This document shows, piece by piece, positions 2,934 to 19,229 of a stretch of 20,000 bases of DNA. The notes under the pieces were generated by a model, which saw only the letters and a list, made by a program, of their open reading frames with translations, ran no database searches and was not told the origin of the DNA. Both the position numbers and the translations under genes were made by a program. Origin of the DNA: Pachysolen tannophilus NRRL Y-2460 (Eukaryota); the NCBI GenBank assembly GCA_001661245.1, contig KV454016.1:1108253-1128252 (forward strand), written 5' to 3'. Position 1 is the first letter of the stretch, and each line of letters opens with the position of its first letter.

Positions 2934-3249
2934 NNNNNNNNNNNNNNNNNNNNNNNNNNNNNNNNNNNNNNNNNNNNNNNNNNNNNNNNNNNNNNNNNNN
3001 NNNNNNNNNNNNNNNNNNNNNNNNNNNNNNNNNNNNNNNNNNNNNNNNNNNNNNNNNNNNNNNNNNNNNNNNNNNNNNNNNNNNNNNNNNNNNNNNNNNN
3101 NNNNNNNNNNNNNNNNNNNNNNNNNNNNNNNNNNNNNNNNNNNNNNNNNNNNNNNNNNNNNNNNNNNNNNNNNNNNNNNNNNNNNNNNNNNNNNNNNNNN
3201 NNNNNNNNNNNNNNNNNNNNNNNNNNNNNNNNNNNNNNNNNNNNNNNNN
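2934..3249. other. Assembly gap (N run) flanked by T-rich sequence on the left and poly(A) on the right
   Basis: N run seen directly. Confidence 0.99.
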
Positions 3250-3970: not shown

Positions 3971-4994
3971 TTATTTTTCATCATCATCATTGAAAATTTC
4001 AATTGGCCATGTTGGATCATTGAATCTCATGGTACGACCCATCTTGTTAGCAAGGTTTTCAATGATGCGTCCATCATCATCTGACAATTCAATTGTCTTA
4101 ATGTTAGCATCAACTCTTTCTGGAGTAACAGATTTTGGTAAAACAACTGTTTCTCTCCAGATAGCCCATGAAATGACAAGGGTAGCAACAGAAACACCGT
4201 ATTTTTCAGCAATCGCTATCAAAGTTGGATCTTTGAATAATGGCGAGTTAGTTGAACCTAAAGGAGAATAAGCTTCGACAAGAATACCTTGTTCTTTGCA
4301 GTATTGAACCAATTTGTTTTGTGGCAAATATGGATGACATTCAATTTGGTTAATAGCTGGCTTAATTCTTGTACTTGGATCATTTAATAAAGTTTCCAAA
4401 TTCTTCTTTGAAAAGTTAGAAACACCAATAGATTTAACTTTACCAGTTCCCTTCAACTTTTGGAAAACTCTGTAGGAGTCAACAAATGACCAGTCTTCAA
4501 CCATATCTCTTGTACCATCTGGCTTCTTTGGGTATTTTGGATCATTACCATTTGGATTCAAAAAGATTGGCCAGTGAATCAAATAAAGATCTAAGTAATC
4601 TAAACCAAGAGCTTCTAATGATTCGTCCAAAGCCTTTTCTGGGTCATTGTGACGGGTACACCACAATTTACTGGTAACAAATATTTCTTCTCTTGGAACA
4701 CCAGAATCTTTGATAGCTTTACCAACTTGAGCACCGTTACCGTAAGCCCAAGCAGTATCAATGTGTCTATATCCTGATTTGAGGGCGGCTAAAACAGAAT
4801 TGTAAGCATCTTCATCTGTGGATTTCCAAGTACCAAGACCAACAGCAGGAATTTTGTTACCATCTGGAAGCTTGAAAACTTTGTTTGTCCTGTTTAATAC
4901 TCGTTAGTAATCTATTCATTAAAAACTTTTTTTTTTTCTTTTTTCTTTTCAAATACTATTATACATACTTTTGAATTTGAACAGCTGCAGTCAT
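3971..4994 (-). CDS. Aldo-keto reductase, GCY1/YPR1-like (NADPH-dependent glycerol/aldehyde reductase). Two exons, 4994-4969 and 4889-3971, 314 aa
   Basis: Spliced translation MTAAVQIQK|TNKVFKLPDGNKIPAVGLGTWKS...GYRHIDTAWAYGN...IFVTSKLWCT...DLYLIHWP...SIGVSNF...QIECHPYLPQ...AYSPLGS...LPKSVTPERV. The AKR tetrad D/Y/K/H is present. The ORF track truncates the N-terminus. Confidence 0.92.
4890..4968 (-). other. Spliceosomal intron (79 nt) of the AKR gene
   Basis: Minus strand: GTATGT donor at 4968, TACTAAC branch point at 4909-4903, CAG acceptor ending 4890. Splicing keeps the frame (AA|G = Lys). Confidence 0.92.
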
Positions 4995-8320: not shown

Positions 8321-8840
8321 TTTATCAATAGGCAAAAAAATATTTCTTACGACAGTTCAAAGTAAAAAAATAAAAATTACAAATGAAAAAAAAAAGCAAA
8401 AAAAAAGAAATTCGGAGTCCTATGAATACCAAAAAAAATCAGTAGAGCTTAATTTGTAATTATGATTTTCACTCCTCAATCTCAATTAATTTTGGTTGAC
8501 TAATTGTGATCCATCATATTTTTCATTTTTGAAAAAGATAAAAAGATAAACAAATTTAATTTTTATGCAAATCAGCCGCATGCAATAAATTTCCTTTTTT
8601 TGGACCTTAAATTACAAACAAAAAATACATAGGAATATTGTTATCAGAAGGTAGCAAAGAGATTTTCATTATCATTAGAAAGGAGAGAATGTAAATTGAA
8701 TGAAATCAATTCAAAATTTATTTAAATTAAAATATAAGAATATCCAAGTTAAACATAAACACAAAAATATACTAATAACCTCAAATATAAAACCCCTCTA
8801 GGCAACCATAAAATCAATATTAACTACCAAATTCCAATGT

Positions 8841-8886
<46 letters not shown>

Positions 8887-8889
8887 CCT

Positions 8890-9341
8890 NNNNNNNNNNN
8901 NNNNNNNNNNNNNNNNNNNNNNNNNNNNNNNNNNNNNNNNNNNNNNNNNNNNNNNNNNNNNNNNNNNNNNNNNNNNNNNNNNNNNNNNNNNNNNNNNNNN
9001 NNNNNNNNNNNNNNNNNNNNNNNNNNNNNNNNNNNNNNNNNNNNNNNNNNNNNNNNNNNNNNNNNNNNNNNNNNNNNNNNNNNNNNNNNNNNNNNNNNNN
9101 NNNNNNNNNNNNNNNNNNNNNNNNNNNNNNNNNNNNNNNNNNNNNNNNNNNNNNNNNNNNNNNNNNNNNNNNNNNNNNNNNNNNNNNNNNNNNNNNNNNN
9201 NNNNNNNNNNNNNNNNNNNNNNNNNNNNNNNNNNNNNNNNNNNNNNNNNNNNNNNNNNNNNNNNNNNNNNNNNNNNNNNNNNNNNNNNNNNNNNNNNNNN
9301 NNNNNNNNNNNNNNNNNNNNNNNNNNNNNNNNNNNNNNNNN
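8890..9341. other. Assembly gap whose two flanks duplicate each other
   Basis: CCAAATTCCAAT followed by poly(T) then poly(A) occurs at both 8827 and 9343. Confidence 0.95.
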
Positions 9342-9356
9342 CCCAAATTCCAATTT

Positions 9357-9394
<38 letters not shown>

Positions 9395-9404
9395 TAGAAC
9401 AACC

Positions 9405-10505
9405 TTAATTCATCGATGATCCCAAAGAAGCCAATGTTCCAAAAGTAATTACTGAACCTAAAACTGCTCCTGTAAAAAATATGCCTGCATTTTTCTTAAA
9501 GTTAAGCCTTTCCTTTTGATCTAATTTCCTTTTCTTATAAACTGGTTCTCTTTCTGATTTGCTAATGATTGTACCTGTATCAACGGAATTGTTCTTTTCA
9601 TCCAACAACTTTGTTACTAAAGTTACAGATTCATATTCTGATCCGGTATTACAAGCACGCAGTTGTTCGTCTGAAGAATCAGCTTGGTATTCACTAAAAC
9701 AGCAACTTTCTGAAATTTCGTTTCCAGAATCTGTTGATTCTGAGTCTTCATCTTCATCATCACTCACATCACTATAAGTTCTCTTCCTTTTGCTAAAAGC
9801 AACCGGAGGATTAAATTCTTCGTCAGTACAATTACGATCATCTTCAACAGAATCACAAACCCAATCCTCTGTCAGAGGTGCTTCTTTTTCAATGTAGTAT
9901 TCTTCAGGTCCTTCTTCTTCAACATCATCCGATTCCTCATCATCATCTTCATCATCATTTTTGTATTGATTTTCTTCCAAAAACTCTTCATGATCATCAA
10001 TTTTTATTTCATCCTGAAGATAAGACTTACAACTATCACCATCAACTCCCGATTCATTATCATACTCTTCTGTTGAATTGATATTATCTATTGATATATT
10101 AGAATTACTACGGTTATCTTCAAATTCTGAGTCTGTCTTTTCTGATTCTGAATCATCATCCCAATTATCGTATTCGAAATCGATTTGATTATCATCATTA
10201 TTTTTCACATCAAGACATTCATTTACAAAAGGATCAAAAAATCCCATATTATTCAAGTTTGAAAACAAATTTGAAGGATTTAATTTGTAAAGTTCAATAA
10301 CATGAGAATCTTTTAATGTTCTAAACATTAAAAAAACTTTACATGATTTCATAGCGTCAAAAGAACCATATTCCACATAAGAACTATCTAAAGATTTTGT
10401 TTTGCATTTACCAATGACTAAACATAAGATATCCTTATCTTTTAAAGGAATTTTCTCAAAAGGTTTTAAAATCATAAATTGATTTTTATCATAACTGTAT
10501 AAACC
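9405..10505 (-). CDS. C-terminal part of an FHA-domain protein: last FHA strands, long acidic region, NLS-like patches and C-terminal membrane anchor
   Basis: The frame is open up to 10505 (GLYSYDKNQFMILKPFEKIPLKDKDILCL, resembling the FHA terminal L-x-P...L-x-D-x-D-I). D/E-rich middle, KRKR and KKRKL, and tail AGIFFTGAVLGSVITFGTLASLG. Confidence 0.75.
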   Translation of the reverse strand, partial: GLYSYDKNQFMILKPFEKIPLKDKDILCLVIGKCKTKSLDSSYVEYGSFDAMKSCKVFLMFRTLKDSHVIELYKLNPSNLFSNLNNMGFFDPFVNECLDVKNNDDNQIDFEYDNWDDDSESEKTDSEFEDNRSNSNISIDNINSTEEYDNESGVDGDSCKSYLQDEIKIDDHEEFLEENQYKNDDEDDDEESDDVEEEGPEEYYIEKEAPLTEDWVCDSVEDDRNCTDEEFNPPVAFSKRKRTYSDVSDDEDEDSESTDSGNEISESCCFSEYQADSSDEQLRACNTGSEYESVTLVTKLLDEKNNSVDTGTIISKSEREPVYKKRKLDQKERLNFKKNAGIFFTGAVLGSVITFGTLASLGSSMN

Positions 10506-10646
10506 TCATATAAATATTATTTTATTTGATAATCCATTTTATATTGAGAATTAAGAGAAGAGTATATAAGAATTTATAAGGGAATTTCCTTTTTTGGCCC
10601 GTTTTTTTTTTTTTTGTAAAAAGATTTATATACTTTTTATTGAAGT

Positions 10647-10922
10647 ATGAAGCATCGCCGCCATCATCATTGCAATCGTCATTATGGGTTGTTCCTTGAC
10701 CCCTTATCAGATATTCCTAAAAGAGAAATCCGGCTTGACTCTAGTGAAGAATCAGATGTTACAATTGGTAGATCATCATTAAATTCTAATGTCATTGATA
10801 GGAAACTGGATTGTAATAATGGGTTTTTCTCGGAAAGAACGTTATCTTCAAAACATTTAAAAATTTTAAAAGATGAAGATGGATTTTACGTTTCAGATCA
10901 ATCTAGTACTCATAAATCATAG
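10647..10922 (+). CDS. N-terminal part of an FHA domain, truncated after DQSSTH; appears to be the inverted 5' end of the 9405-10505 gene
   Basis: FHA signature motifs VTIGRSS, NNGFFSERTLSSKH and FYVSDQSSTH, then KS* where G is expected. Confidence 0.75.
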   Translation: MKHRRHHHCNRHYGLFLDPLSDIPKREIRLDSSEESDVTIGRSSLNSNVIDRKLDCNNGFFSERTLSSKHLKILKDEDGFYVSDQSSTHKS

Positions 10923-11434
10923 AAAAATATTAATATTATTAAGTGGCGAATTACATAGAGAAAATGATAAGTACAAAAATATTTTATAGAAAAATTCAAA
11001 AAATAAGCAGATAAGAGAATCTTTTTTTTTTAAACTAAAAAAAAGCTCTTAAAAAAAAGAAAAAGAAAAAAAAATTAATTTTTACAATTATATATATATA
11101 TACAATTAGTTAATAGCGCTTTAACTTTAACAAGAAAATTGTATTAGTATCATTCAATATTACCTCTATATTAAATCCATTTATAACAATCTTTATTTCA
11201 TTATAAGATAAAATTAATCAATAATATTTATTAATTTTACTAGGTTAATTTAACAAAAGATCCAACAAAGATAGTGCACAGAATACCAATACACCGAATT
11301 CGGATGCTTTAGATGAGACCATAGTAAATGGAAATATAATATGATGGATGAAGATAATGACTGATATAATTAATATAATATAAATTATATATTTGATAAT
11401 ACTAGAAATTTATTCATGATTAATTTGTTAGCCA

Positions 11435-11470
11435 ATGTGTCGTTTTTTAATATTTAAAGGTATGTAAAGG

Positions 11471-11504
<34 letters not shown>

Positions 11505-12605
11505 CTGTTAACGTTTATCACTAACAAAATTATTGAATAGGTAAAAATCCGATATTGCTATCGAATCTATTGACCAAGCCTGCTCATTCGATTATCAACC
11601 AATCATATGATTCGAGGTTACGTTTAGATATGGTTCGTCCCATTAATGGTGATGGTTTTGGAATTAGTTATTATACTCATAATGATGCTGATACTGAGGA
11701 GGAAGGTCCTTGTACTTTTAAAGCTATTACACCTGCTTGGAATAATTTGAATTTGGAAAGGTTAGCTCAAAAGACGAAATCTGATTTGGTATTTGCTCAT
11801 GTTAGAGCATCAACTTATGGTGTTTTAAGTGAAACAAATTGTCATCCTTTTACTTACCATAATATTTCATTTATGCATAATGGTGGCATTGCAAATTTTG
11901 ACAAGATTAAAAGAAAATTAATTAGTCACATAGATGATAAATATTTTTATTAATTCAAGGTGCTACCGATTCAGAATGTTCTTTTAGCTTATTTTTAGAT
12001 ACATTGGATAAAATGGGAGTTGATCCTTCAAAACCTGAAAAAGAAATTGGACATGAAAATTTAAGAAAAGCTTTGCTTAAAACAATAGAATTAATAAATA
12101 CTTGGACAAAAGAATCAGATTTGTCCAGTAAGGAACCTTCATTGTTAAATTTTGCTGTAACTGATGGTTCATCAATTGTTGTATCTCGTTATATATCTTC
12201 AAAAACAGATGAAGCTGCTAGTTTACATTTTAGTACTGGTTCAAATTTTATAGAATATGCTCCGGGACAATTTAAAATGGAGAGATTGGATAGATTACAA
12301 GATGTCATAATGATTGCTTCTGAACCTTTAACTTTTGAAAGAGGCGATTGGATTACGGTGCCGACGAATTCCACATTATCGGTAAAAATCAAACAGTATT
12401 ATTGCACCCCATTATTGATGAATATTATCAAGAAGATCCATTATTTGAAAGAAGTTCCTCATTGGCAGAAAGTAAAGGACTTATGGGTTCCATCCCAGTT
12501 GGAGAAATTGTTGATAGTGAGTTGCCACCTTTAGAAAGAGAGGGAAGATCAAGACATGTTTTAACTCAAAATCCACTGAAAGCGCAGGACGTTTCTGCAT
12601 TTTAA
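11435..12605 (+). CDS. DUG3: Dug3, glutamine amidotransferase class II subunit of the glutathione-degrading complex. Exons 11435-11459 and 11541-12605, with two 1-nt frameshifts (~11946, ~12386); ~363 aa when corrected
   Basis: Spliced N-terminus MCRFLIFKG|KNPILLSNLLTKPAHSIINQS with the Cys2 nucleophile. Motifs NGDGFG, FAHVRAST, NCHPF, FMHNGG, QGATDSEC, LLNFAVTDG, ASEPLTFERGDW and LLHPIIDEYY are spread over three frames. Confidence 0.93.
11460..11540 (+). other. Spliceosomal intron (81 nt) of DUG3
   Basis: GTATGT donor at 11460, variant branch point CACTAAC at 11519-11525, TAG acceptor at 11538-11540. G|GT = Gly keeps the frame. Confidence 0.9.
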
Positions 12606-12902: not shown

Positions 12903-14138
12903 TTAATTTAGAATTGAGCTCATGCTCATTGGAGGTGGTGTTGGATTTTCTTTATCTTTTTTAAATGGTAATGAACTTTTCCCACTTCCTTCATTAGTAC
13001 TATTATTAGAATTAGCGTTAACATTTGAATCGTAATTCACTGAAGATAAATTTTTATCTGTATTAAATTTCGGAAATACATTGGGAGGTCTAGAAGAATG
13101 AGTGAAATCTATAGGTGGAAGTTGTATTGGTGGCAATTTGATTGGGTTTTTATTAATGTTGTAATTAGGTTTCATTGGAACAATGTAAGCGGGTGTTGAA
13201 ACTGTCAGTGTTAATGGAGGTGATTGTTGCTGTTGTTTTTCTATCGAGGGTATAAATTGATCTTTTTCCAAATTTCTGCTTTTAGGAATAGATGGACTTG
13301 AAGTGGAAGAATTACTTGTATTATGTCCTGGGTTTCTCTTTCTTCTTTTTATAGTTGATCTCTTTAATTTTATTGGTCTATGACACCCATGTAATTTATA
13401 ATATAGCCCACATGCATTGCAAATGTTATTTCCTACATCATCTCTTCTCCATAAAGGCGTTACTGTTGTTCCACAATTCGTACATGCAATTGCAACAGAT
13501 TCTGATTCTTCCGCTAAATTAAGAGAAGAATCAGTATTATTTGTTGTTGATTCAATTTTTTTCCCTTCAGAAAGTTCATGTTTATGCTCATCACTATTAT
13601 CAGAACAACTTTTACAATAATGTGCTGCCTTATTTGAAGTACTATTACCATTTGATGGACCAACTTTGGAAATTACAACTCTATTATTAAAAGCGGGACA
13701 TCCACTACAAGCGGCAGAGCCTCCTGTTCCATTACATCTTCCGTCTCCTTTACATGTACCTTCATTTAATTCACTTTTTGCAACAGGAATAACGTGAAGC
13801 AGTCTTTTTAAATGCACTGGTCTATGACAATTATTGGCTCTATAATACAATCCACAAGCGTTACAAATTAAATTACCATCCACACCTTTCCTCCATAATG
13901 GAGTTTTGGTAGTACCACAATTTGAACAAACTTGACCTTGACTATTATTTGCGGTCAAATTCAGTACTATCGATGGTGGAGTTTTTATTTTTTCAGTTTC
14001 ACTCAGATTTTTATTTTCCGTTTTCATGATTTTTTGATCGTTATTGTTCAAAAAAGAATTAGTAATAAAATCTCTAACTTCTTTTTCTTTAAAATTTATA
14101 CTATCCTGAGTGGGACCAATATTCTTAGCAGCCTCCAT
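12903..14138 (-). CDS. SFU1: Iron-responsive GATA-type transcriptional repressor (Sfu1/Fep1/SreA/Urbs1 family), 411 aa
   Basis: Two GATA zinc fingers (CSNC...PLWR...CNACGLY and CTNC...PLWRR...CNACGLY) separated by the Cys-rich C-x5-C-x8-C-x2-C box ([19 protein letters not shown]). C-terminal MSMSSILN. Confidence 0.92.
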
Positions 14139-15667: not shown

Positions 15668-16510
15668 ATGTCATCGGATACACATACAGCAGTTGACATC
15701 GAATCACAAGAAAAAGCAAAAGAAGAGTACTCTCCGCCATATAAGCCAGCTTACGCAAGTTACGGGTTTGGAAATGATGGTATCCGTCACCATTTCATTG
15801 CCGTAATGGGTGAATTTGTTGGTACATTTCAATTCTTATGGTGTGCCTATGCTATTGCGCAAATTGCTAACCATGATCCAGCCATGGAAGGTGGTATTAC
15901 ATCTGATCCAGGGAGACTTATCATGATATCTATGGGTTTTGGGTTTTCAGTCATGGTTTCTGTGTATTGTTTTTTCAGAGTTTCAGGTGGTAATTTGAAC
16001 CCAGCAGTCACTTTAACTTTAGTTTTAGCAAGGGCTATCCCTCCATTCAGGGGTCTTTTGATGTTCATTGCTCAAATGGTTGCTGGTATGGCAGCTGGTG
16101 GGGCTGCTTCTGCTATGACTCCTGGAGACGTTTTATTTGCAAACAGCTTAGGTGCTGATTGCTCTAAAGGTAGGGGCCTAATGTTGGAGTGTTTTGGTAC
16201 TTATGTATTGTGTATTACTGTTTTGTTCATGGCTGTTGAGAAACATCGCGCAACTTTTACTGCACCTTTTGCTATTGGTATTGCACTTTTCATTGGTCAC
16301 TTAATTTGTGTTCAATATACTGGTGCCGGATTGAACCCAGCTAGATCCTTTGGTGCTGCTATAGCTAAGGCCTCATTTCCAGTTTACTTTTGGATTTACA
16401 TTGTTGGTCCATTTTTAGGTGCTTTCTTGGCTTACTTGACATGGCAAATTCTTAAATGGTTGGATTACGAGACTTGCAACCCAGGTCAAGATGCTGATTC
16501 AAAACAGTAA
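15668..16510 (+). CDS. AQY1: Orthodox aquaporin (MIP family), 280 aa
   Basis: Two NPA motifs ([10 protein letters not shown] and [11 protein letters not shown]), GEFVGTF, six hydrophobic segments, and C-terminal [10 protein letters not shown] typical of yeast Aqy1. Confidence 0.95.
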
Positions 16511-18272: not shown

Positions 18273-19229
18273 ATGACTCTTCAATATTATACTTTGAACA
18301 ATGGTCGTAAGATTCCTGCTATAGGAATGGGTTGCTGGAAATTAGAAAATGCCGCAGATATGGTTTATGCAGCTATCAAAGAAGGATATAGATTGTTTGA
18401 TTGTGCTTGTGATTACGGTAATGAAAAAGAAGTCGGTGAAGGTATTAACAGAGCTATTAAAGATGGCTTGGTTAAGAGAAAGGACTTATTCATTACTTCC
18501 AAATTATGGAACAATTTTCATGCAAAGGAGAACGTTAAAAAAGCTTTAATGAAATCGTTGAGTGACTTCAATTTGGATTATTTTGACTTATATTTAATGC
18601 ATTTTCCAATTTCATTTAAATTTGTTCCCTTTGAAGAAAAGTATCCACCAGGATTCTATTGTGGTGATGGTGACAAATTTATCTATGAAGATGTTCCCAT
18701 AATTGAAACCTGGAGAGCAATGGAAAATTTGGTCGACGAAGGATTGGTTAAGTCAATTGGTGTTTCCAATGTTAGTGGTGGTTTACTTGAAGATTTAATT
18801 AAGGCTGCAAGAATCAAGCCTGCATCATTACAAATTGAACATCATCCTTATTTGCAGCAAAACAAATTGGTTGAGTATGCCCAATTAAAAGGTATTGTTG
18901 TTACTGGTTATTCCAATTTTGGTCCTCTATCATTTCTTGAATTAGGAAACGAGACCGCAAAAAAAACGCAACCTTTATATGAAAATAAGACAATTACTAC
19001 AATCGCTGCTAAGCATGGAAAGACCCCTTTCCAGGTTTTGTTAAGATGGGTTAATCAAAGAGGTATTGCAATTATTCCAAAATCTACTTTCCCAAATACT
19101 TTGGCTGTCAATTTACACGTCGATGAGTTTGATTTGACCAAAGAAGATTTTGAAGAAATTGCAAAGTTGGACAGGCACTTGAGATTTAACGATCCATGGA
19201 CTTGGGATAAAATTCCAACTTTTGTTTGA
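18273..19229 (+). CDS. XYL1: NAD(P)H-dependent D-xylose reductase (AKR2B), 318 aa
   Basis: [70 protein letters not shown] and [16 protein letters not shown]. From memory the sequence matches Pachysolen tannophilus Xyl1. Confidence 0.97.

What the first reader, a model, noticed from the sequence alone, without database searches (positions are those of the whole stretch)
9405..10922. FHA-domain gene split across opposite strands: a 408-bp inversion (10506-10913) rebuilds one seamless ORF
Seen: the + ORF from 10647 encodes the first part of an FHA domain (IGR, SxxH, DQSSTH) and stops two residues later. The adjacent divergent - strand frame is open up to exactly 10505 and begins GGT TTA TAC (GLY...). 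Joining CAT (ends 10913) to GGT (starts 10505) needs no indel and gives ...FYVSDQSSTH|GLYSYDKNQFMILKPFEKIPLKDKDILCL. Known: this restores the FHA D-x-x-S-x-[NH]-G motif and the terminal strands. The product (89+366 = 455 aa; FHA, acidic region, C-terminal TM) has an architecture like Vps64/Far10/SLMAP-type tail-anchored FHA proteins. The flipped segment carries the start codon and 141 bp of upstream sequence, so its orientation would act as an on/off switch. I see no inverted repeats at the ends, only a direct CTCATA at 10505-10510 and 10909-10914. Inference: a strain-specific inactivating inversion, an assembly chimera, or (most exciting, least supported) a reversible switch or trans-joined transcript.
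Basis: partly seen in the sequence, partly recalled or inferred. Interest (0 to 1): 0.85.

Follow-up and report, generated by a model that had tools for sequence, protein, structure and literature searches.

The report
Split FHA gene: likely assembly misorientation
A yeast gene that looks cut in two and placed on opposite strands is whole in independent sequencing data, so the "inversion" is most likely a local error of this draft assembly and not a genetic switch.

Summary
The sequence facts hold. A + ORF (10647-10922) carries the first two thirds of an FHA domain, a - frame is open up to 10505, and flipping the block in silico gives one seamless ORF. The split is not present in the four read sets I could look at. 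Contigs built independently from four public runs (three from one sample, one from a second study) each join 10505 directly to 10919 on the opposite strand. That is the un-inverted, intact gene. No laid contig supports the window's own junctions. The contigs also leave the window at 10601/10602. The breakpoints have no inverted repeats. The same window has other assembly defects: an N gap flanked by the same 64 nt, and a frame change in the neighbouring amidotransferase gene. Best reading: a local misassembly of a draft scaffold from a CUG-Ala yeast (about 0.7). A real inversion in the assembled lineage remains possible (about 0.2). A reversible switch or a trans-joined RNA is very unlikely. 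The gene itself has an FHA domain, an acidic region and a C-terminal tail anchor, and no detectable homologue outside the FHA part.

The parts
9405..10505 (-). 3' part of the gene: 366 codons plus the stop. It should hold the last strands of the FHA domain, followed by an acidic, Ser-rich region and the tail anchor.
   Evidence: The frame is open stop-to-stop and translated. D+E make up 36% of residues 191-400 of the joined protein. Read contigs cover it with 0 differences (table 8).
9426..9488 (-). Predicted C-terminal transmembrane segment (tail anchor), about residues 431-451 of 457
   Evidence: Best 19-residue Kyte-Doolittle window scores 1.71 at residues 431-449, GIFFTGAVLGSVITFGTLA. It ends about 8 residues before the C-terminus.
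10506..10919 (.). 414-bp block whose orientation in the window disagrees with the read contigs. It holds 141 bp of upstream sequence and the first 91 codons.
   Evidence: table 5: opposite-strand joint 10505|10919 (X1, X4) or 10506|10918 (X3, X5), one contig per run, with 190-255 letters on the shorter side.
10647..10919 (+). 5' part of the gene: ATG plus 91 codons, holding the N-terminal two thirds of the FHA domain (residues 38-89)
   Evidence: Pfam FHA profile 1-42/67, E 4.5e-4. In the Atlas search, 12 of 30 hits belong to the FHA family set of the top hit, best score 0.91. An in-frame TGA at 10641-10643 makes 10647 the first possible start.
10920..10922 (+). TAG that ends the + ORF in the window. 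It is flank sequence, not part of the gene.
   Evidence: It lies just outside the read-supported joint.
10506..10508 (-). TGA (TCA on +) that closes the - frame in the window. It lies inside the misoriented block.
10602..10615 (+). T14 run where the read contigs of all 4 runs end or leave the window. The window has GGCCCG to its left, whereas the contig of X3 goes on with 8 more T.
   Evidence: tables 7 and 8: pieces stop at 10602, and the X3 loose end is TTTTTTTT.

Best explanation
The organism carries one intact, intron-less gene of 457 codons. It encodes an N-terminal FHA phosphopeptide-binding domain, a long acidic serine-rich linker and a C-terminal tail-anchor helix. In this draft scaffold a 414-bp block (10506-10919), holding the promoter-proximal 141 bp and the first 91 codons, sits in the wrong orientation. 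This artificially splits the gene into a 91-aa + ORF and a start-less 366-codon - frame. Most likely this is a local assembly error, in a region where the assembly is also defective at poly(dA:dT) tracts. It is not a biological rearrangement.

Shown: the intact joint exists in the DNA of four runs, and no laid contig shows the window's junctions.

Inferred: that the window's orientation is an artefact and not a private mutation of the assembled DNA; that the rest of the block is simply flipped (the second junction was not seen); and that the protein acts as a membrane-anchored phospho-threonine reader like Far9/Far10/SLMAP.
For: (1). In 4 of 4 runs laid (X1, X3, X4 from one sample, 2010-11; X5 from another study, 2023), a single contig of 1330-1465 nt runs from 9400 to 10505/6 and continues, without extra letters, on the opposite strand from 10919/8 down to 10602 (X5: to 10729). 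There are 0 differences over 9400-10505 in all four, and 0 over 10729-10918 in X5. De Bruijn contigs can cross a joint only if its k-mers are in the reads.

(2) The contigs do not break at the joint, so no competing continuation is abundant there.

(3) Unrelated contigs in the same runs have similar depths (X1: 294, 171 and 146; X5: 147, 118 and 110). The runs are therefore genomic DNA and the joint is in DNA.

(4) The contigs also disagree with the window at a third border, 10601/10602 (tables 7 and 8). A clean two-break inversion does not predict this.

(5) No inverted repeats lie at the breakpoints.

(6) Other defects lie within a few kb. The 452-N gap 8890-9341 is flanked by the same ~64 nt, 8826-8889 and 9342-9405. 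The neighbouring class-II amidotransferase is broken by a frame change at about 11941-11953; the EgtC-type profile TIGR03442 matches positions 11-137 in one frame and 140-249 in the next.

(7) The Pfam FHA match is cut at profile position 42/67 exactly at the break, so the split ORF cannot be a functional domain.
Against: - It is not known whether any of the runs laid are the reads from which this record was assembled. If none is, the window could faithfully show a private inversion.
- Assemblers rarely flip a block that has neither flanking inverted repeats nor Ns, and I can name no concrete mechanism for this error.
- The window's joins are base-perfect and leave both frames open to the break, which also fits a real two-break inversion.
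- Contigs drop rare variants, so a minority orientation cannot be excluded.
- The second joint expected for a simple flip (reverse complement of 10506 joined to 10920) was not observed.
- No intact 457-aa version is in the protein collections.
- Part 2 alone gives no FHA signal. Completion of the domain therefore rests on contiguity and on a recalled motif (L-K-D-K-D-I-L against the FHA C-terminal L-x-d-G-D-x-i consensus).
Confidence: 0.7

Rival explanations
1. A real, fixed inversion in the particular culture or lineage whose DNA was assembled. This would be a two-break, end-joining-type inversion of 414 bp that separates the promoter and first 91 codons from the rest, giving a null allele of the FHA tail-anchored gene. 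Other cultures of the same or a nearly identical strain keep the intact gene.
For: The window's junctions are clean, with no Ns and no lost or added bases at the one joint that can be compared. Neither inverted repeats nor low complexity at 10505/6 or 10919/20 would explain an assembler's mistake. Read contigs are otherwise identical to the window over 9400-10505, so very close lineages are being compared.
Against: 4 of 4 runs from 2 studies show only the intact joint. The best holders date from 2010-11 and may be the assembly's own sample. The window also disagrees with the reads at 10601/2 and has other local defects.
Confidence: 0.2
2. A reversible on/off switch. Both orientations coexist in a population, and the flip couples or uncouples the promoter and start codon from the gene body.
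For: The geometry would work as a switch, because the block holds the start codon and 141 bp upstream. Inversion switching exists in this yeast clade at the MAT locus (PMC6692504, passages read).
Against: There are no inverted repeats at the ends. The best pair near them, 10504-10527 / 10923-10946, is 24 nt, 71% complementary and out of register with the breakpoints, among 86 similar weak pairs in AT-rich DNA. By contrast the MAT flip/flop of P. tannophilus uses 2-kb inverted repeats around 8 kb. Contigs of 4 runs pass the joint without branching. None of the neighbouring ORFs scanned matched a recombinase family.
Confidence: 0.03
3. The DNA really is inverted and the two halves are joined at RNA level (trans-splicing or template switching).
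For: None beyond the in-frame fit.
Against: The joint is present in runs whose contig depths and total size (13-17 million letters) behave like genomic DNA. There are no splice signals at the ends.
Confidence: 0.01

Closest known systems
Far9 (Vps64) / Far10 of Saccharomyces cerevisiae and animal SLMAP: tail-anchored subunits of the Far/STRIPAK phosphatase complex
   Same: The same architecture in the joined protein: an FHA domain near the N-terminus and a single hydrophobic helix at the extreme C-terminus. [quoted passage not shown] That they carry FHA domains is recalled and was not seen in a call.
   Different: No sequence relationship could be shown. The 366-aa part has no homologue but itself in a word-indexed search or in an exhaustive phmmer of 1.84 billion representatives. 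The 91-aa part found nothing longer and nothing related in the PDB. The middle region is acidic and probably disordered; a coiled coil was not looked for.
Flip/flop mating-type switching by inversion in Pachysolen tannophilus, Ogataea and Komagataella
   Same: A chromosomal inversion that changes gene expression, in the same yeast clade as inferred for this window.
   Different: That system inverts 8 kb (P. tannophilus) to 138 kb between inverted repeats; those of P. tannophilus are 2 kb (PMC6692504). Here the block is 414 bp, has no inverted repeats, and reads show one orientation.
Misoriented or misjoined blocks in draft scaffold assemblies
   Same: The record disagrees with independent read contigs at three borders. 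It has Ns, duplicated gap flanks and a frame change in the neighbouring gene.
   Different: The usual cause, a small contig flipped between gaps or between inverted repeats, is not visible here. The joins carry no Ns and no repeats.

Membership tests
FHA domain (Pfam PF00498) | Profile match above the curated gathering score | tested here: met
   21.0 bits against a cut-off of 20.7, E 4.5e-4, on the 89-aa piece. This is marginal, and only profile positions 1-42 of 67 are matched.
FHA domain (Pfam PF00498) | Complete domain: profile positions 43-67 present after the join | tested here: inconclusive
   The first 35, 45, 75 or 366 residues of the - strand part give no FHA hit at E<=10, as may be expected for 25 positions. 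The joined protein could not be given to Pfam by reference, so it was not scored.
Far9/Far10/SLMAP tail-anchored FHA proteins | Single C-terminal transmembrane helix close to the C-terminus | tested here: met
   best hydropathy window at residues 431-449 of 457 (mean Kyte-Doolittle 1.71). This is a hydropathy scan only, not a dedicated predictor.
Far9/Far10/SLMAP tail-anchored FHA proteins | Detectable sequence homology to family members | tested here: not met
   Searches found no homologue but the window's own protein. Searches found none in the PDB.
Far9/Far10/SLMAP tail-anchored FHA proteins | Coiled-coil region and binding to Far3/7/8/11 (STRIPAK core) | not tested
   No coiled-coil prediction was run, and the genome was not available to look for partners.
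Invertible-DNA switch (flip/flop MAT; bacterial fimS/hin type) | Inverted repeats at both ends of the invertible segment | tested here: not met
   only weak AT-rich pairs, none in register with 10505/6 and 10919/20.
Invertible-DNA switch (flip/flop MAT; bacterial fimS/hin type) | Both orientations present in DNA of one culture | tested here: inconclusive
   4 of 4 runs show the un-inverted joint in unbranched contigs, but contigs cannot exclude a rare form.
CUG-Ala clade yeast (NCBI table 26) | CTG read as alanine | tested here: inconclusive
   The collection's copy of this protein (P0001) has Ala at both CTG codons, codons 211 and 282 of the 366-codon frame. This shows how the source translated it, not how the cell does. 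Yeast-type intron signals (GTATGT...ACTAAC...AG, 11460-11540) fit a budding yeast.

The most novel reading that the evidence does not exclude
The window's orientation is real in the DNA that was assembled. A repeat-independent 414-bp inversion would then have arisen in one laboratory lineage of the strain and silenced a fast-evolving tail-anchored FHA gene, while sister cultures keep it intact. In the boldest form, the two states interconvert at low frequency.
Probability: 0.2. Interest if true: 0.3.

Novelty: not a real feature. Interest (0 to 1): 0.1.

Why it matters
Mostly as a caution. A striking gene split across opposite strands with a seamless in-silico repair is here best explained by the assembly. 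Anyone annotating this record will miss a 457-aa FHA tail-anchored protein, or call it as a start-less fragment; the protein collection holds only such a 365-aa fragment. The corrected gene model is useful for studies of Far/STRIPAK-like membrane anchors in CUG-Ala yeasts. If the inversion proved real in one lineage, it would be an ordinary loss-of-function structural variant.

Tried and rejected
- Whole-genome search: no genome is held for this window.
- Earlier findings of the scan: nothing by place, words or sequence.
- Complex prediction on the two halves (residues 25-91 of part 1 with 1-90 of part 2): no verdict, score 0.21 and 0.16 against a mark of 0.34. This counts neither for nor against.
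- Protein Atlas on the 366-aa part: no usable hit.
- RNA evidence: no RNA holder was listed among the runs, so expression and the transcript could not be looked at.
- Cover: no contig was laid on 10510-10583 or on 10954-11600 in any run. The tool states that such holes prove nothing. The second junction of a simple flip and the placement of 10506-10601 therefore remain unseen.
- Shares of sampled words were 0.87-0.88 in all five holders. I could not turn this into a test.
- The FHA contig has 1.25-2.1 times the depth of two unrelated contigs. This is unexplained and was not used.
- Metagenome scan for the 26 nt left of the break: 0 matches.
- Scoring the joined protein against Pfam, or folding it, was left out because the joined sequence cannot be given by reference.
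- Rejected reading: an intron acceptor at the AG just upstream of 10505, with a - strand first exon elsewhere. The DNA joint in the reads makes it unnecessary.
- Rejected reading: a ciliate-type scrambled gene. Yeast introns, CUG-Ala translation and the intact DNA joint speak against it.

Full report
**What is in the window.**
The window is AT-rich (22-36% GC per kb). It is a draft scaffold with N runs at 2905, 2934-3249 and 8890-9341. Its genes are eukaryotic:
- a GH5 cellulase-like protein, two aldo/keto reductases, a GATA zinc-finger protein and a MIP channel;
- a class-II amidotransferase whose first 25 nt are followed by a textbook budding-yeast intron (GTATGT at 11460, ACTAAC, AG at 11539-11540).

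The protein collection's own copy of the - strand ORF (P0001, 365 aa, on a 1,128,252-nt contig) carries Ala at both CTG codons. The source therefore translated the record with table 26. I infer a yeast of the CUG-Ala clade (Pachysolen, Nakazawaea, Peterozyma; clade membership as listed in PMC6692504, passages read).

**Check of the observation.**
- The + ORF 10647-10922 gives 91 aa ending DQSSTHKS*.
- Pfam FHA matches residues 38-89 to profile positions 1-42 of 67 (E 4.5e-4; 21.0 bits against a cut-off of 20.7). The match is cut off exactly at the end of the piece.
- The Atlas feature search also puts this piece among FHA clusters (score 0.91; 12 of 30 hits belong to the family set of the top hit).
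- The - frame 9405..10505 is open for 366 codons from a TGA at 10506-10508.
- Flipping 10506-10913 in a script yields one 455-aa ORF.
- The CTCATA direct repeat is there.
- The ends have no inverted repeats. The nearest pair (10504-10527 / 10923-10946) is 24 nt, 71% complementary and out of register, one of 86 similar pairs in 1.1 kb of AT-rich DNA.

**What the reads say.**
Five public runs hold the stretch (shares of sampled words 0.87-0.88). Four are from one sample (2010-11) and one is from another study (2023). None is recorded as RNA. I laid the contigs of X1, X3, X4 and X5 on 9400-11600.

- In each of the 4 runs, one contig (1463, 1465, 1464 and 1330 nt) covers 9400-10505/6 with 0 differences. 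It then continues, with no letters between, on the opposite strand at 10919/8. It runs down to 10602 in X1, X3 and X4, and to 10729 in X5, where a 164-nt contig carries on to 10602.
- The joint has 190-255 letters on its shorter side and 1 nt of ambiguity.
The gene reads ...ACT CAT AAA TCA | GGT TTA TAC..., giving ...STHKS|GLYSY... and 457 aa. The TAG that ends the + ORF in the window is flank sequence.
- The runs behave as genomic DNA. They total 13-17 million letters, their longest contigs are 18-21 kb, and three unrelated contigs have depths within about 2-fold of each other in every run. The joint is therefore in DNA, which removes the trans-joined-transcript idea.
- The contigs pass the joint without branching, so a second abundant continuation (the window's junctions) is not in those reads. 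A rare one cannot be excluded from contigs.
- The contigs also stop agreeing with the window at 10601/10602. All of them end a few letters beyond 10602, and the X3 contig continues with 8 more T where the window has TTGGCCCG (tables 7 and 8).

Three borders of the window (10505/6, 10601/2 and 10919/20) are thus unsupported by any laid contig.

**Other defects of the record nearby.**
- The 452-N gap is flanked on both sides by the same ~64 nt, CCAAATTCCAAT followed by a T run and an A run (8826-8889 against 9342-9405; local alignment score 55). This pattern looks like contig ends that overlap but were not merged.
- The amidotransferase next door is split into two frames near 11941-11953. The NCBIfam EgtC-type profile TIGR03442 matches positions 11-137 in the first frame and 140-249 in the second.

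These defects make a local assembly error at the FHA gene more credible. They do not prove it.

**Weighing the explanations.**
- Favoured, about 0.7: a local misassembly, meaning a misoriented 414-bp block, perhaps with further confusion at the poly(dA:dT) tract.
- Main rival, about 0.2: a real repeat-independent inversion private to the DNA that was assembled. In its favour, the window's joins are clean and I cannot name a mechanism by which an assembler would flip a block without repeats or gaps. I also do not know whether the runs laid are the assembly's own.
- A reversible switch, about 0.03: it lacks its defining inverted repeats, no neighbouring ORF scanned matched a recombinase family, and there is no second orientation in 4 runs.

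**What the gene is.**
The intact product has:
- a His/Arg-rich N-terminus;
- an FHA domain starting at about residue 38;
- a 36% Asp+Glu, 12% Ser region over residues 191-400;
- a KRK-rich stretch;
- one hydrophobic helix at 431-449 of 457.

This is the architecture of tail-anchored FHA proteins. Far9 and Far10 are tail-anchored subunits that bring the Far complex to the ER (PMC7738187, passage read); their FHA domains are recalled, not seen in a call. I infer a membrane-anchored phospho-threonine reader.

Family membership is not shown. The 366-aa part has no homologue but itself in the word-indexed collection or in an exhaustive phmmer of 1.84 billion representatives. The 91-aa part finds no longer relative. 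Neither part finds a related solved structure. Part 2 alone shows no FHA signal. The test of the two halves as a complex gave no verdict.

**Not done.**
- The joined protein was not scored against Pfam or folded, because it cannot be given by reference.
- The second junction and raw-read counts could not be obtained.

Noticed in passing
window 8826-8889 and 9342-9405 (flanks of the N gap 8890-9341): Both flanks of the 452-N gap carry the same ~64 nt (CCAAATTCCAAT, T21-23, A18-26, ...CCT). The gap is probably spurious, from contig ends that overlap in a T/A tract but were not merged.
   Followed up: partly
window 11435-12534 (+): A class-II glutamine amidotransferase (EgtC/DUG3-like). Exon 1 is 11435-11459 (MCRFLIFK...). 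A yeast-type intron spans 11460-11540 (GTATGT...ACTAAC...AG). A frame change near the T run at 11941-11953 then splits the gene into two ORFs: profile TIGR03442 positions 11-137, then 140-249. This is either a sequence error or a pseudogene.
   Followed up: partly
window 9408-10505 (-) against P0001: The collection's copy of this ORF has Ala at both CTG codons, so the source record is translated with NCBI table 26 (CUG = Ala). The copy is start-less and begins at the second codon after the break.
   Followed up: yes
window 10596-10615: GGCCCG sits between a T6 run and a T14 run in very AT-rich DNA. Read contigs show only T there (at least 20-22 T) and end in the tract, so the real poly(dT) tract is probably longer than in the record.
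   Followed up: partly
window 9400-10919 (table 8): The contig carrying the FHA gene has 1.7-2.1 times the k-mer depth of two unrelated contigs in the three runs of one sample, and 1.25-1.34 times in the other study. This is unexplained; it may be composition bias or copy number.
   Followed up: no
window 3971-4903 (-) and 18273-19229 (+): Two aldo/keto reductase genes lie in one 20-kb window (both match Pfam PF00248 over nearly the full profile). Also present are a GH5 cellulase-like ORF (1405-2673), a two-finger GATA factor (12903-14138, -) and a MIP channel (15668-16510).
   Followed up: no
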